Source of the DNA: the human T2T-CHM13v2.0 reference genome, Homo sapiens
Assembly (NCBI RefSeq): GCF_009914755.1
Contig: NC_060932.1
DNA length: 64,000 bases
Reading direction: 5' to 3' (one strand)
The notes beneath the pieces were generated by a model. The model did no database searches. It had not been told where the DNA came from and saw nothing but the letters and a program-made list of their open reading frames with translations. Shown here piece after piece: positions 54,545-63,500 of the stretch (the stretch's first letter is position 1; each line of letters opens with the position of its first letter). The translations under genes were made by a program, and so were the position numbers.

Positions 54545-54713
54545 ACATTTTCTAAATATAAGAATTTAAGATAGATTACAATAACATCTATAGTTTAATT
54601 CAAAGGATTTTTCTCAGATATAAGTTGGGTCAATTTGAGACATAAATAGGATTCAAGTTTAGATTATTTTAGCCCTGTGCACAGAAGAAACATTTCTTTC
54701 TTTTTTTTTTTTT

Positions 54714-54906
54714 TTCTCCTGCCTCAACCTCCTGACTAGCTGGGACTACAGGCGTGTGCCACCATGCCCAATTAATTTTTGTATTTTTAGTAGAGATGGG
54801 GTTTCACCATGTTGGCCAGGATGGTCTTGATCTCTTGACCTTGTGATCCTCCTGCCTCATCCTCCCAAAGTGCTGGGATTACAGGCATGAGCCACTGCGC
54901 TGGGCC
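54714..54906 (-). mobile_element. AluSc-like, 3'-truncated in the right arm and directly followed by poly(A); part of the L1 transduction
   Basis: T15 joins directly to CTCCTGCCTCAACC; about 100 nt of Alu 3' end absent; GGATGGTCTTGATCTCTTGACCTTGTGATCC. Confidence 0.9.
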
Positions 54907-54969
54907 TTGACATCTTTTTATTCTGCAAATTTTACAGGATTTAGTAAAAATATTTCATAACATATTTAT

Positions 54970-55263
54970 GTATTTATTTATTGAGATGGAGTCTCCCTCT
55001 GTGGCCCAGGCTGGAGGGCAGTGGCGTGATCTCGGCTCACTGTAATCTCTGCCTCCCGGTTTCAAGCCATTCCCCTGCCTCAGCCTCCTGAGTAGCTGGG
55101 ACTACAGGCGCCTGCCACCACACCCAGCTAATTTTTTGTATTTTTAGTAGAGACAGGGTTTCACCTTTTTAGCCAGGATGGTCTCGATCTCTTGACCTCG
55201 TGATCTGCCTGCCTCAGCCTCCCAAAGTGCTGGGATTACAGGCGTGAGCCACAGTGCCAGGCC
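54970..55263 (-). mobile_element. Alu SINE (AluY/Sc-like) in the A-tail of a small L1 fragment
   Basis: Full Alu body; TATTTAT on both flanks. Confidence 0.93.
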
Positions 55264-55380
55264 TATTTATTTTTTATTTTACTTTAAGTTACATGTGCAG
55301 AACGTGCAGGTTTGTTACTTAGGTATACATGTGCCATGGTGGGTTTGCTGAACTTATCAATCAACCCATCATCTAGGTTT
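55264..55380 (-). mobile_element. Terminal ~115 bp of an older L1 (L1PA8-like) 3' UTR
   Basis: rc: AAAACCTAGATGATGGGTTGA..CAGCAAACCCACCATGGCACATGTATACCTAAGTAACAAACCTGCACGTTCTGCACATG. Confidence 0.8.
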
Positions 55381-58600: not shown

Positions 58601-59439
58601 TGTTGTGTCTTTTTTCTCATTGGTTTCAAAGAACATCTTTATTTTTGCCTTCATTTCGTTATGTACCCAGTAGTTATTCAGGAGCAGGTTGCTCAGTTTC
58701 CATATAGTTGAGTGGTTTTGAGTGAATTTCTTAATCCTGAGTTCTAATTTGATTGCGCTGTGATCTGAGAGACTGTTTGTTATAATTTCTGTTGTTTTAC
58801 ATTTGCTGAGGAGTGTTTTACTTCCAACTATGTGGTCAATTTTGGAATAAGTGTGATGTGGTGCTGAGAAGAATGTATATTCTGTTGATATGGGGTGGGG
58901 AGTTCTGTAGAAGTCTATTAGTTCTGCTTGGTACAGAGCTGAATTCAATTCCTGGATATCCTTGTTTAACTTTCTGTCTCATTAATCTAATATTGACAAT
59001 GGGGTGTTAAAGTCTCCCATTATTATTGTGTGGGAGTCTAAGTCTCTTTGTCAGTCTCTAAGGACTTGCTTTATGAATCTGAGTGCTCCTGTATTGGGTG
59101 CATATATATTTAGGATAGTTAGCTCTTCTTGTTGAATAGATCCCTTTACCATTACGTAATGGCCTTCTTTGTCTCTTGATCTTTGTTGGTTTAAAGTCCA
59201 TTTTATCAGAGACTAGGATTGCAACCCTTGATTTTTTTTTTCCATTTGCTTGATAGATCTTCCTCCATCCCTTTATTTTGAGCCTATGTGTGTCTCTGCA
59301 CATGAAATGCGTCTCCTGAATACAGCACACTGATGGGTCTTGACTCTTTATCCAATTTGCCAGTCTGTGTCTTAATTGGAGCATTTAGCCCATTTACATT
59401 TAAGGTTAATATTGTTATGTGTGAATTTGATCCTGTCAT
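55626..59439 (-). pseudogene. Disrupted L1 ORF2 (endonuclease/reverse transcriptase)
   Basis: ATGACAGGATCAAATTC start at 59439; fragments with CCIQETH (EN), [21 protein letters not shown] and LFADDMIVY (RT), HCWWDC; several frameshifts and stops. Confidence 0.95.
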
Positions 59440-59502
59440 TATCATGTTAGCTGGTTATTTTGCTTGTTAGTTGATGCAGTTTCTTCCTAGCATCAATGGT
59501 CT

Positions 59503-60532
59503 TTACAATTTGGCATGTTTTTGCAGTGACTGGTACTGGTTGTTCCTTTCCATGTTTAGTGCTTCCTTCAGGAGCTCTTGTAAGGCAGGCCTGGTGGTGA
59601 CAAAATCTCTCAGCATTTGCTCATCGGTAAAGGAATTTATTTCTCCTCCAGTTATGAAGATTAATTTGGCTGGATATGAAATTCTGGGTTCGAAATTCTT
59701 TTCTTTAAGAGTGTTGAATATTGGCCCTCACTCTCTTCTGGCTTGTAGAGTTTCTGCCGAGAGATCCGCTGTTAGTCTGATGGGTTTCCCTTTGAGGGTA
59801 ACCCGACCTTTCTCTCTGGCTACCCTTAATATTTTTTCCTTCATTTCTATTTTGGTGAATCTGACAATTATGTGTCTTGGAGTTGCTCTTCTCGAGGAGT
59901 ATCTGTGTGGCATTCTCTGTATTTCCTGAATTTGAATGTTAGCCTGCCTTGCTATGTTGTGGAAGTTCTCCTGGATAATATCCTGCAGAGTGTTTTCCAA
60001 CTTGGTTCCTTTCTCCCCATCACTTTCAGGTACAGTAATCAGATGTAGATTTGGTCTTTTCACATAGTCCCATATTTCTTGGCAGCTTTATTCATTTATT
60101 TTTACTCTTTTTTTCTCTAAACTTCTCTTCTCACTTCATTTCATTCATTTGATCTTAAATCACTGATAACCTTTCTTCCACTTGATCAACTCGGCTACTG
60201 AAGCTTGTGCATGTGTCATGTAGTTCTCATGCCATGGTTTTCATCTCCATCAGGTCATTTAAGGTCTTCTCTATGCTGTTTATTCTAGTTAGCCATTCAC
60301 CTATCTTTTTTCAAAGTTTTTACCTTCTTTGTGATGGGTTCAAACATCCTCCTTTAGCTCGGAGAAGTTTGTTGTTACCGATCGTCTGAAACGTTCTTCT
60401 CTCAACTCATCAAAGTCATTCTCCATCCAGCTTTGTTCCGTTGCTGGCAAGGAGCTGTGTTCCTTTGGAGGAGAAGAGGCACTCTGATTTTTAGAATTTT
60501 CACCTTTTCTGCTCTGGTTGGTTTCTCCCCAT
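59503..60532 (-). pseudogene. Disrupted L1 ORF1 (RNA-binding protein)
   Basis: ATGGGGAGAAAC at 60532 with a 4-nt ACCA duplication; fragment KRPNL...RATPRHIIVRFTK...GKPIRLTADLSAETLQARRE. Confidence 0.92.
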
Positions 60533-63500
60533 CTTTGTGATTTTATCTACCTTTGGTCTTTGGTGATGGTGATGTACAGGTGGGGTTTTGGTGTGGATGT
60601 CCTTTCTGTTTGTTAGATTTGCTTCTAACAGTCAGGACCCTCAGCTGCAGGTCTGTTGGAGTTTGCTGGAGGTCCACTCCAGACCCTGTTTGCCTGGGTA
60701 TCACCAGCGAAGGCTGCAGAATAGCAAATATTGCAGAACAGCAAATGTTGCTGCCTGATCCTTCCTCTGGAAGCTTCCTCTCAGATGGGCATCCGGCCAT
60801 ATGAGGCATCAGTCAGCCCCTACTGGGAGGTGTCTCCCAGCTAGGCTACTTGGGGGTCAGGGACCCACTTGAGGAGGCAGTCTGTCTGTCCTCAGATCTC
60901 CAACTCTGTGCTGGGAGAACCACTGCTCTCTTCAAAGCTGTCAGACAGGGACATTTAAGTCTGCAGAAGTTTCTGCTGCCTTTTGTTAAGCCAGAAGAAA
61001 CATTTCTTTAGGTGAAAGTGGGAAGCAGATAAATGTGACACATTTTATGTCATTGCTAAATGGAGATTTTGGATAAGATTTTCATCTATAAAGAATCCTC
61101 AGTGAAAATGAACATATCTTTGAAAACTGGGTCTTCTAACAGAGGAAATGATGAAGCCATAATCACATCAGTGAACTCACTTTGTATTGAAGTTTACAGG
61201 ATCATATAACTTCATTAATTTTTTTCCCTTTCTTATTGCTGAAACAGAAAGATGGCAGGTGAATGTGGAAATTAATCCATTAGAGTGAACATGTTTCTAT
61301 TTCAAAGTATGTTAATTTCATTTCTACTTTGTCAGCTTTAATTTGTCACTGAACCTAAAATGGGATAATTGTACCAGCATCTAAGTTCACATATGTGGTC
61401 AACGTTTTCCTAGTTTTATAAAGTTACATTTAGATTCTGTCGACACTGCTCAATGTATTACAAAGTAACATGTGTTGAGACTTGGCTCTCGACATATCAA
61501 ATTAAGTCAAAATATAAATTAATTCAATGACCACTCTGTGTTGATATTTGCTCATTGTGCTGTAAACACATTTTGTGAGGAATCCCTATAATTTCACCTA
61601 AAATTATACAAAAAGCCCTACCACAAGAACGTTATTATTTTTGAATACCTTAGATATTCACTTTGCAAAACTACAGTTACAATGATTTGAGTGGGGGGCT
61701 ATGTAAAAATAAAGGGAGAAATAAAGACACTGGCTAATAACCAAGTCTAACTCCAAGATTCTATCTTCTGTTAATTTATTTTAAACAGTCAAGATGGAAT
61801 TGAAACAACTCTGAAAAATTAAGAGCAGAAATTGTAATATCTAAGATTTATTTATTTTTCCTATTTAAGCAGTCTCATGTCATTTTTGTAAAAAAATCAC
61901 TTATTCTTAGAAAAGATGTTGTTGTTAGTCATACATCAGTGTAAGCAAAACTATGTCATAAATAAGCTTTTTTAATAAGCAGAGAAAAAGGGGATAAAAG
62001 AAGAAGAGCTATAATATGAATAGCTAAATGTCTGTTTTAGAATGAACAAATAAATAAAGAGTGAGAATAAGGGCAAATAAATGTTAACAGTTCTCAAGCC
62101 TGTACTTACATCCTTTTCTTCCCATGATGTTATCCCTTGTATTAAATCATTCACAGATAATTTAATAATTTCTCTGAATTAAAATATATCTTTGACACTT
62201 TACTCAAATGCCAAGAAATTCCAAAAAATTTAGGGGAAAAACCATGTACTTAATGTGTAACAAATAAAGGCATCCTAGAAAATGTTTTCAAAATATTTCA
62301 TGGCATATAAGTATTTTGGGGTATTTTGTTAAGTATAGATTTATAATACATCTATTATATTTACATTCTTGACTATAAATACTAAATATCTATAACACTT
62401 TACAGTAGGCTTTTATTTTCTTTCTAAATAATTTCTCAAAATAGTGCAATCTATTAGGTTTTCCTTTTTACAGCTGTTAAAATGTACTTGTACATTTTAT
62501 TCATATTGATGTTACTGCCAAAAAGAAATGAAAACCTGCATATAATCTATGCTCAAAGTTGTGTCAAATTGAAAGATCAGGAAAATTTACATGAATGGTA
62601 CCTTATGAAAATTATTGGCCTCTATAATGAATTTTCCTAAGCTTGTCTGTTTGAAGAAATACTCCTTAAAATCCTCTTTTTAAAATTTTTTTGAAAGTAT
62701 ACTTTTATTTGGAAATATATTTTTTTCTTTCTGAAAGCATCTCATTTTTATTCTTTGCTGTGTTTCAATGAATTACACGACTTCAGAAAAAGGATATGGA
62801 ATTTATCACTATCTACATTTGTTTGTATTTAGAACTGTCAGAAGTGTCCTATTTTTGAAATCCTGGTAATTGCGTTTGTTTTTCAAACTTTTCTAGTAAA
62901 TCCCACACCAAAGAAAAGAAAAAGAAAATTGAAATTCAGATCTAAAGGTATTAGTTAGTAAAGTAAGAGAATGTCAAATGGATGAATACAAATATATATA
63001 TATATACATTTATACACACACATATATATGTCTATATAAAACAATGCATGAATAAATAATCATGGGAAAGTATATTAATTGAATGAATGCATTTTAAATG
63101 TGATTTTAATAGTTGCCTGATAGTTATTATAAATGTTTTTATTTTTACAAATATATACTTTCCTATTTGCTTATCTCTTATTAATTCGCATTTTTTAAAT
63201 TAGTCTTCTTGGGATACTAGACATGAATTTATATGACGTAGAATAACAATTATGTATTCTTTCAATTCAATTTTTTTATAACCTGCTACATTTTCAGGCC
63301 AATATTAACATATTATTTACATCCTAACGTACTTTCTTATACTTTAACACTTTTGAAATATAGGTGAAATCTTATAGTTGTTATATACATTTAATGTGAT
63401 TGTGGTTTTAACAAAAACCTATTCAATTTGAAAGCTTTAATTAAAATTTGTAGTATCATAGACTGTGAGCAGTATGATAATTATAGCAGTAACAGTAAAA

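What the first reader, a model, noticed from the sequence alone, without database searches (positions are those of the whole stretch)
54682..61009. L1 3' transduction: one 18-bp TSD brackets the L1 plus ~0.7 kb of foreign DNA
Seen: CAGAAGAAACATTTCTTT occurs at 60992-61009, exactly at the L1 5' end. Its partner is not at the L1's own A-tail (~55381-55420) but at 54682-54699, beyond a second poly(A) (T15 at 54701-54715). Between the two tails lie an older L1 3' stub, an Alu, a ~60-bp spacer and a partial Alu. Known: L1 transcripts read through the weak L1 polyA signal, and target-primed reverse transcription carries downstream flank to new sites. Inference: the whole 6.3 kb is one insertion, and 54700-55380 was copied from another locus. 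Standard repeat annotation would list these as four unrelated repeats.
Basis: partly seen in the sequence, partly recalled or inferred. Interest (0 to 1): 0.8.

Follow-up and report, generated by a model that had tools for sequence, protein, structure and literature searches.

The report
Old L1 with 3' transduced flank
This is an old, broken L1 retrotransposon that carried about 0.7 kb of its former neighbour DNA with it when it inserted, which is a well-known and common by-product of L1 copying and of no special importance.

Summary
The 18-mer CAGAAGAAACATTTCTTT occurs exactly twice in the window, at 54682-54699 and 60992-61009. None of 100 shuffles gave any exact match. It is the only shared word of 8 nt or more between the two junction zones.

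The right copy abuts the 5' end of a minus-strand L1. That L1 carries ORF1, endonuclease and RT domains and is 5'-truncated by about 545 bp. The left copy abuts a T15 run that lies 0.68 kb beyond the L1's own A-rich tail.

Between the two tails, all in L1 orientation, lie a 102-bp stub of an older L1, a full Alu, a unique spacer and the first 191 nt of another Alu. The L1 alone has no duplication of its own. Both outer flanks are single-copy.

One retrotransposition event with a 3' transduction is the best reading. No donor or sibling locus was found in the same genome. The transcript end also lacks a poly(A) signal. This is an ordinary instance of a textbook process and of low interest.

The parts
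60992..61009 (.). Target-site duplication, copy at the L1 5' end (5' TSD in L1 sense)
   Evidence: Exact 18-mer. Homology to 9 of 9 sister L1 copies stops at or just inside 60991.
55422..60991 (-). L1 body, about 5570 bp, 5'-truncated by about 545 bp, with broken reading frames
   Evidence: Pfam hits: Transposase_22 8.9e-58 (59728-60087), Exo_endo_phos 1.2e-5 (59058-59384), RVT_1 2e-45 (57060-58226). The longest stop-to-stop frame is 388 aa. Best non-self genome copies are 92-94% identical. All 9 of 9 sister copies share about 545 bp further upstream. One sister on C12 spans 5569 bp between the same end points, against 5566 bp in the window, so there is no large internal indel.
55383..55421 (-). 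The L1's own A-rich tail, now a degenerate microsatellite (A10, TTAA and TAA repeats, A7)
   Evidence: Read directly. Sister L1 alignments end at 55421-55426.
55281..55382 (-). 102-bp 3' stub of an older L1, beginning (in L1 sense) at a TT/AAAA-type endonuclease site. Inferred to be the donor L1's 3' integration junction and flank.
   Evidence: 86-91% identical to 7 old L1 3' ends. Of the 7, 4 read TTTTAAG and 2 read TTTTATG across the point where the window stub stops. The 7th (C7) is itself split there by an in-situ nested L1.
55264..55280 (-). Short A-rich tail of the old L1 stub, into which the Alu is inserted
   Evidence: Read directly. It contains AATAAA at 55278 and 55271.
54983..55263 (-). 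Full-length Alu (281 bp) in L1 orientation, most CpGs decayed
   Evidence: Reading; Alu-Alu repeats; 82-89% matches to other Alus.
54907..54982 (-). A-rich stretch plus unique spacer. This is the only non-repeat part of the transduced block. It contains AATAAA at 54922.
   Evidence: Only a self-hit in the whole genome with 121-nt and 73-nt queries. A 25-mer pattern at up to 3 mismatches gave self plus 3 hits, against 2 for the control. None of the 3 shares the context.
54716..54906 (-). First 191 nt of a second Alu. Its last 89 bp or so and its tail are absent.
   Evidence: In register with the full Alu: 54714-54780 matches 55070-55136 and 54776-54918 matches 55133-55275.
54700..54715 (-). Terminal poly(A): A15, plus one G next to the duplication (T15 and a C on the + strand)
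   Evidence: Read directly. There is no poly(A) signal hexamer within 40 nt upstream. The nearest are AATACA at 54785 and ACTAAA at 54791.
54682..54699 (.). Target-site duplication, copy next to the terminal poly(A) (3' TSD in L1 sense)
   Evidence: Exact 18-mer. The left flank 54566-54699 is single-copy in the genome.

Best explanation
One L1 target-primed reverse transcription event inserted a 6.3-kb cDNA at the site CATTTCTTT/AGGTG of a single-copy region.

The template was a read-through transcript of a donor L1 at another locus. That donor had itself landed in the 3' end of an older L1. Transcription ran past the donor's own poly(A) signal and through the rest of the old L1 and its A-rich tail. 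It then passed through an Alu sitting in that tail and a short unique stretch, and ended 191 nt into a second Alu, where it acquired a poly(A) tail.

Reverse transcription started on that terminal poly(A) and stopped about 545 nt short of the L1 5' end. Repair of the staggered nicks produced the 18-bp duplication.

Shown here: the duplication, the two tails, the order and orientation of the pieces, the L1's identity and truncation, and the lack of a duplication for the L1 alone.

Inferred: the read-through RNA, the donor nested in an old L1, and the timing. The 92-94% identity to sister copies suggests a middle-aged primate L1PA element, roughly 15-25 million years old by recalled calibrations.
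For: - The 18-mer is exact, occurs only twice, and 0 of 100 shuffles gave any match.
- It is the only shared word of 8 nt or more between 60970-61060 and 54560-55440, so the L1 alone has no duplication.
- Sister-copy homology ends at the 18-mer. The T15 run touches the other copy.
- L1 identity is confirmed by three Pfam domains in the right order.
- Truncation is shown by 9 of 9 sister copies extending about 545 bp further.
- The right flank is unique non-L1 DNA, so the old-L1 stub is not the remnant of an in-situ nested insertion. The C7 locus shows what in-situ nesting looks like: there the old L1 resumes about 715 bp beyond the break.
- The stub starts exactly at a TTTT/AA site of the old L1, as expected for the 3' junction of a donor L1.
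- Foreign DNA lying 3' of the L1 is the layout of 3' transduction. About 25% of L1 insertions carry one (introduction and abstract of PMC13009371).
Against: - No donor or sibling locus was found in the same T2T genome. Spacer queries hit only themselves. The 25-mer pattern hits are at control level and lack the context. The stub+tail+L1 junction query found no full-length match, though only 40 of 881 candidates were scored.
- The RNA end lies inside an Alu right arm with no poly(A) signal hexamer within 40 nt. Seven AATAAA hexamers further upstream were bypassed.
- PMC13009371 reports a signal 10-30 bp upstream for 274 of 349 endpoints (79%), so this end belongs to the minority class.
- No outgroup genome could be examined.
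Confidence: 0.8

Rival explanations
1. RNA-level chimera. Reverse transcription began on the poly(A) of an unrelated polymerase II transcript containing the old-L1 piece, the Alu, the spacer and the partial Alu. At the UUAAAA run of the old L1, the cDNA end (TTTT) jumped onto the poly(A) tail of an L1 mRNA. Alternatively, the two RNAs were ligated before copying. This is still one insertion with one duplication, but there is no donor L1 next to the block.
For: - The junction (cDNA ending in TTTT, followed by a poly(A)-derived tail) could equally arise by microhomology-guided template switching.
- The same stub-tail-L1 layout recurs at C6, and no donor was found.
- All four pieces are co-oriented and each ends in an A-rich stretch.
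Against: - In the catalogued L1 chimeras the non-L1 partner lies 5' of the L1 and the L1 3' end is terminal, in keeping with cis preference (passages of bioRxiv 10.1101/2025.02.02.635956). Here the layout is reversed.
- It needs two rare steps: trans initiation on a cellular RNA, then a switch to L1 RNA.
- The C7 locus shows that the same old-L1 site is a real DNA-level insertion target.
- Co-orientation is also expected when elements insert into existing A-tails (general knowledge, recalled).
Confidence: 0.1
2. Independent events. The L1 inserted next to, or into, pre-existing local repeats, and the 18-mer pair is a coincidence or part of a dispersed repeat.
For: Repeat annotation treats the pieces as separate elements. 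Nested insertions at the same old-L1 site exist elsewhere (C7).
Against: - The exact 18-mer never appeared in 100 shuffles, and its edges coincide with the L1 5' end and with the T15 run.
- No other shared word of 8 nt or more could serve as the L1's own duplication.
- Both flanks are single-copy.
- The rest of the old L1 is absent beyond the L1 5' end.
Confidence: 0.02
3. Non-standard capture. A pre-formed DNA or cDNA fragment containing the L1 and its neighbours was captured at a staggered double-strand break, without L1 endonuclease.
For: The target CTTT/AG is not a perfect TTTT/AA site. The terminal tail has no poly(A) signal upstream.
Against: An 18-bp duplication, a terminal poly(A) abutting it, 5' truncation and a near-consensus T-rich nick site are the classical marks of endonuclease-dependent L1 insertion. 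That endonuclease-independent insertions typically lack duplications is recalled; only the title and abstract listing of PMC1920257 were seen.
Confidence: 0.03

Closest known systems
L1 (LINE-1) 3' transduction (partnered transduction)
   Same: - An L1 with its own A-rich tail, followed by non-L1 flank in the same orientation and a second, terminal poly(A).
- One target-site duplication around everything.
- A T-rich nick site and 5' truncation.
   Different: - The transduced DNA is almost wholly repeats (old L1 stub, Alu, partial Alu), so it is invisible to repeat annotation.
- The RNA end lies inside an Alu without a nearby poly(A) signal.
- The donor is not detectable in the same genome.
Template-switch or ligation L1 chimeras (U6/L1, Alu/L1, mRNA/L1)
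   Same: Several co-oriented retro-sequences inside one target-site duplication, with a possible microhomology (TTTT against poly(A)) at the internal junction.
   Different: Known chimeras carry the foreign part 5' of the L1 and end with the L1 3' end. Here the foreign part is 3' of a complete L1 3' end and tail.
In-situ nested L1 insertion into an older L1 (as at C7:105857373-105858356)
   Same: The older L1 3' end is interrupted at the same TTTT/AA site, and the younger L1's tail abuts the stub.
   Different: At C7 the remainder of the old L1 lies on the other side of the inner L1. In the window the other side is unique non-L1 DNA, and the duplication encloses the stub.

Membership tests
L1 3' transduction | An L1 element (ORF1, endonuclease and reverse transcriptase sequence) with its own 3' end and A-rich tail | tested here: met
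   Pfam Transposase_22, Exo_endo_phos and RVT_1 on the minus strand. Sister-copy alignments run to 55421-55426, followed by the tail.
L1 3' transduction | A single target-site duplication encloses the L1 plus the extra 3' sequence, and none encloses the L1 alone | tested here: met
   The exact 18-mer is at 54682-54699 and 60992-61009. It is the only shared word of 8 nt or more between the junction zones.
L1 3' transduction | A second, terminal poly(A) directly next to the 3' duplication copy | tested here: met
   A15 at 54715-54701 on the L1 strand, one G, then the 18-mer.
L1 3' transduction | A target resembling the L1 endonuclease site TTTT/AA | tested here: met
   The inferred pre-insertion site reads CATTTCTTT/AGGTG, that is CTTT/AG. 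This is a near match, not a perfect one. The consensus itself is recalled.
L1 3' transduction | The extra sequence is colinear with the 3' flank of an identifiable donor L1 | tested here: inconclusive
   No second copy of the spacer or of the stub-tail-L1 junction was found in the same genome. The donor may be lost, or the search may be limited (only 40 of 881 candidates were scored).
L1 3' transduction | A poly(A) signal 10-30 nt upstream of the terminal poly(A). This is usual (79% in PMC13009371) but not obligatory. | tested here: not met
   None of 14 hexamer variants lies within 40 nt. The nearest are AATACA and ACTAAA, 70-76 nt upstream.
L1 3' transduction | An empty site with one duplication copy in a species that diverged before the insertion | not testable with these tools
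   No primate genomes are held. Both flanks are single-copy, so there is no paralogous stand-in.
Template-switch or ligation L1 chimera | The non-L1 partner is fused 5' of the L1, and the L1 3' end with its poly(A) is terminal | tested here: not met
   The foreign block lies 3' of the L1 tail. The feature is as described in bioRxiv 10.1101/2025.02.02.635956 (passages).
In-situ nested insertion | The host element continues on the far side of the inserted L1, and the L1 has its own duplication | tested here: not met
   The far side (60992-61200) is single-copy non-L1 DNA. The L1 has no duplication of its own. C7 serves as a positive control.

The most novel reading that the evidence does not exclude
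The 0.68-kb block at 54700-55382 may be the only surviving copy of a donor neighbourhood that has since been deleted from, or never fixed in, the human lineage. Its unique spacer has no second copy in a telomere-to-telomere genome. The block may also record two successive transductions: first the 102-bp old-L1 stub ending at that stub's own poly(A) signal, and later the Alu-spacer-Alu piece. In that case the final RNA end would have formed inside an Alu without any poly(A) signal.
Probability: 0.3. Interest if true: 0.2.

Novelty: new member of a known kind. Interest (0 to 1): 0.12.

Why it matters
It matters little beyond annotation. Repeat masking will list an L1, an L1 fragment and two Alus as separate events here, when they arrived together. 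That slightly distorts counts and ages of Alu and old-L1 insertions at this locus.

The locus is a clean teaching example of a transduction made almost entirely of repeats, and of a transduced RNA that ended without a recognisable poly(A) signal. It sits in a gene-free region with no annotated functional element, so no functional consequence is expected.

Tried and rejected
**Donor and sibling candidates**
- C2:70078238-70078355 was tested as donor. It is 72% identical over 121 nt, explained by two Alus plus a 13-base run. Its second Alu is of a different type and there is no L1 stub. Rejected.
- C10:106779473-106779881 was tested as donor. It is colinear at 86% across Alu plus old L1, but the left flank is unrelated and the old L1 runs on uninterrupted. 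It is an independent Alu in an L1 tail. Rejected.
- C7 (L007/L034) was tested as donor or sibling. The break point is the same, but the inner L1 is only about 80-82% identical to the window L1, the flank is unique, and the old L1 resumes about 715 bp further on. It is an in-situ nested insertion. Rejected.
- C5:166804718 was tested as donor. It has a 25-mer with 3 mismatches beside an Alu, but the spacer is about 72% identical, the Alu 76%, and there is no L1 stub. Rejected. C17 and C19 had only the short pattern match beside unrelated Alus.
- C6 (L033) was tested as a sibling. It has the same layout, but both of its L1 parts are of the old type and only 75-81% identical to the window. I did not follow it to its 5' end, because the two-region fetch failed.

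**Other attempts**
- I looked for a paralogous empty site by searching each flank in the genome. Each returned only itself.
- Using L1 body similarity to pick a progenitor is uninformative. The best copies are all 92-94% identical, which is family-level similarity.
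Full report
**Observation**

The 18-mer CAGAAGAAACATTTCTTT occurs at 54682-54699 and 60992-61009 and nowhere else in the window, even allowing 3 mismatches. With no mismatches allowed, none of 100 dinucleotide-preserving shuffles contained it. The bases immediately outside the two copies differ, so the repeat is exactly 18 bp with sharp edges. A word scan of 60970-61060 against 54560-55440 found no other shared word of 8 nt or more. 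The L1 by itself therefore has no candidate duplication near its own tail.

**Anatomy, read on the minus strand (the L1 sense strand)**

| Piece | Window coordinates |
|---|---|
| 18-mer (5' copy) | 61009-60992 |
| L1 body | 60991-55422 |
| L1's own A-rich tail, now A10 (TTAA)n (TAA)n A7 | 55421-55383 |
| 102-bp 3' stub of an older L1 | 55382-55281 |
| Stub's short A-rich tail | 55280-55264 |
| Full 281-bp Alu | 55263-54983 |
| A-rich stretch and unique spacer | 54982-54907 |
| First 191 nt of a second Alu | 54906-54716 |
| A15 | 54715-54701 |
| One G | 54700 |
| 18-mer (3' copy) | 54699-54682 |

All pieces are co-oriented. The partial Alu is in register with the full one (54714-54780 with 55070-55136). 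It lacks about 89 bp of Alu body and the tail.

**The L1**

- Stop-to-stop frames on the minus strand hit Pfam Transposase_22 (L1 ORF1 RBD-like domain, 8.9e-58), Exo_endo_phos (1.2e-5) and RVT_1 (2e-45), in the expected 5'-to-3' order. Three further frames gave no hit.
- The longest open stretch is 388 aa, so the element is dead.
- In the same genome the best non-self matches are 92-93% identical over the 3' kilobase. That is 39 scored non-self matches out of 14,666 first-look candidates.
- The best matches are 92-94% identical over the 5' 400 nt.
- In 9 sister copies taken, homology to the window stops at 60991 (5 of 9) or 4-7 nt inside it (4 of 9), and never enters the 18-mer or the flank.
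- All 9 share a further 545 bp or so of mutually homologous sequence upstream (82-88% pairwise). The window copy is therefore 5'-truncated by about 545 bp.
- One sister on C12 appears in both searches. It spans 5569 bp between the same end points, against 5566 bp in the window, so the body has no large internal gain or loss.
- The identity level suggests a middle-aged primate L1PA element. The conversion to roughly 15-25 million years rests on recalled calibrations and was not computed here.

**Target site**

Removing the insert leaves CATTTCTTT/AGGTG on the plus strand. That is a CTTT/AG nick site for the strand that primes cDNA synthesis, close to the recalled L1 endonuclease preference TTTT/AA. 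The flanks 54566-54699 and 60992-61200 each match only themselves in the 3.1-Gb genome. So the 18-mer pair is not part of a dispersed repeat, the right flank is not L1, and no paralogous empty site exists to stand in for an outgroup.

**The stub junction**

Seven old L1 3' ends retrieved from the genome are 86-91% identical to the stub. Across the point where the window stub stops (GGTTTTA), 4 of the 7 read TTTTAAG and 2 read TTTTATG. The seventh (C7) is itself interrupted there.

Fetching more of C7 showed that its old L1 resumes about 715 bp beyond the break, on the far side of a short inner L1. So that site is a genuine DNA-level L1 target. A third locus (C6) has the same L1-tail-stub layout.

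In the window, the rest of the old L1 is not on the far side of the L1. The simplest reading is that the donor L1 was nested in an old L1 elsewhere, and the stub came along as the first part of its 3' flank.

There is a caveat. A cDNA ending in TTTT could also jump onto an L1 mRNA poly(A). The junction alone therefore does not exclude an RNA-level chimera.

**Donor search**

- The only unique part of the block is the spacer. Queries of 121 nt and 73 nt found only the window itself, plus two Alu-driven partial matches.
- A 25-mer pattern with up to 3 mismatches gave the window plus 3 hits, against 2 for the reversed control. None of the 3 shares the wider context.
- The stub+tail+L1 junction query (186 nt) gave no full-length match. 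Only 40 of 881 candidates were scored.
- Candidates on C2, C10, C7 and C5 were each examined and rejected.

No donor or sibling is detectable in this assembly. It may have been lost, or it may lie below the sensitivity of these searches.

**RNA 3' end**

On the L1 strand, AATAAA occurs 7 times between the L1 end and the A15: at 55392, 55384, 55278, 55271, 54982, 54978 and 54922. None of 14 hexamer variants lies within 40 nt of the A15. The nearest are AATACA at 54785 and ACTAAA at 54791.

Passages read in PMC13009371 report a signal 10-30 bp upstream of 274 of 349 transduction endpoints (79%). They also report that canonical signals are often bypassed and that some recurrent endpoints lack a strong signal. 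This end therefore belongs to a known minority class.

An alternative is that the Alu was originally complete and a later deletion of about 90-100 bp removed its 3' part. This cannot be tested here.

**Comparison with known systems**

L1 3' transduction is a textbook process. The introduction and abstract of PMC13009371 state that about 25% of insertions carry one. The abstracts of PMC5673974 and PMC4862182, seen in the search listing only, describe the same process.

Known template-switch or ligation chimeras carry the foreign RNA 5' of the L1 and end with the L1 3' end (passages of bioRxiv 10.1101/2025.02.02.635956). That is the reverse of this layout. I did not search print for this particular locus, and the supplements of that preprint are closed, so I cannot say whether it is already catalogued.

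**Verdict**

| Reading | Probability |
|---|---|
| A single insertion event of any kind | about 0.95 |
| 3' transduction (single or serial) | about 0.8 |
| RNA-level chimera | about 0.1 |
| Non-standard capture | about 0.03 |
| Chance or independent events | about 0.02 |

This is an ordinary instance of a known process in a gene-free region, useful mainly as an annotation correction.

Noticed in passing
L034 7874-8857 (G000:C7:105857373-105858356); also L007 1434-1660: An old L1 3' end is split at the same GGTTTTA|A site as the window's stub by a short (about 715 bp) younger L1 with a (TTA)9 tail. The old L1 resumes on the far side, so this is an in-situ nested insertion.
   Followed up: yes
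L033 about 927-1171 (G000:C6:10055726-10055970): A third locus has the layout L1 3' end, A-rich tail, then a stub of about 100 bp of old L1 broken at CATCTAG|TTTT. With the window and C7, this suggests the site near the 3' end of old L1s is a recurrent L1 target or a template-switch point. I did not determine whether C6 is nested in situ or is a short transduction.
   Followed up: partly
L005 1211-1619 (G000:C10:106779473-106779881): An Alu sits in the A-tail of an old L1 in the same orientation and relative position as in the window block. It is 86% identical and colinear over 414 bp, but its flanks are unrelated. This is an independent Alu insertion into an L1 tail.
   Followed up: yes
window 55383-55421: The L1's own A-tail has evolved into a compound microsatellite: (TTAA) and (TAA) units between A runs on the L1 strand.
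   Followed up: no
window 54226-54565: A separate full-length minus-strand Alu with a long T-rich tail lies about 115 bp outside the left 18-mer. It is not part of the bracketed insertion.
   Followed up: no
L028 1440-1660 (G000:C5:166804657-166804877): A 25-mer with 3 mismatches to the window's spacer lies 22 bp from the 5' end of a co-oriented Alu, with another Alu about 80 bp further on. The overall spacer identity is only about 72%, so I judged it a coincidence.
   Followed up: yes
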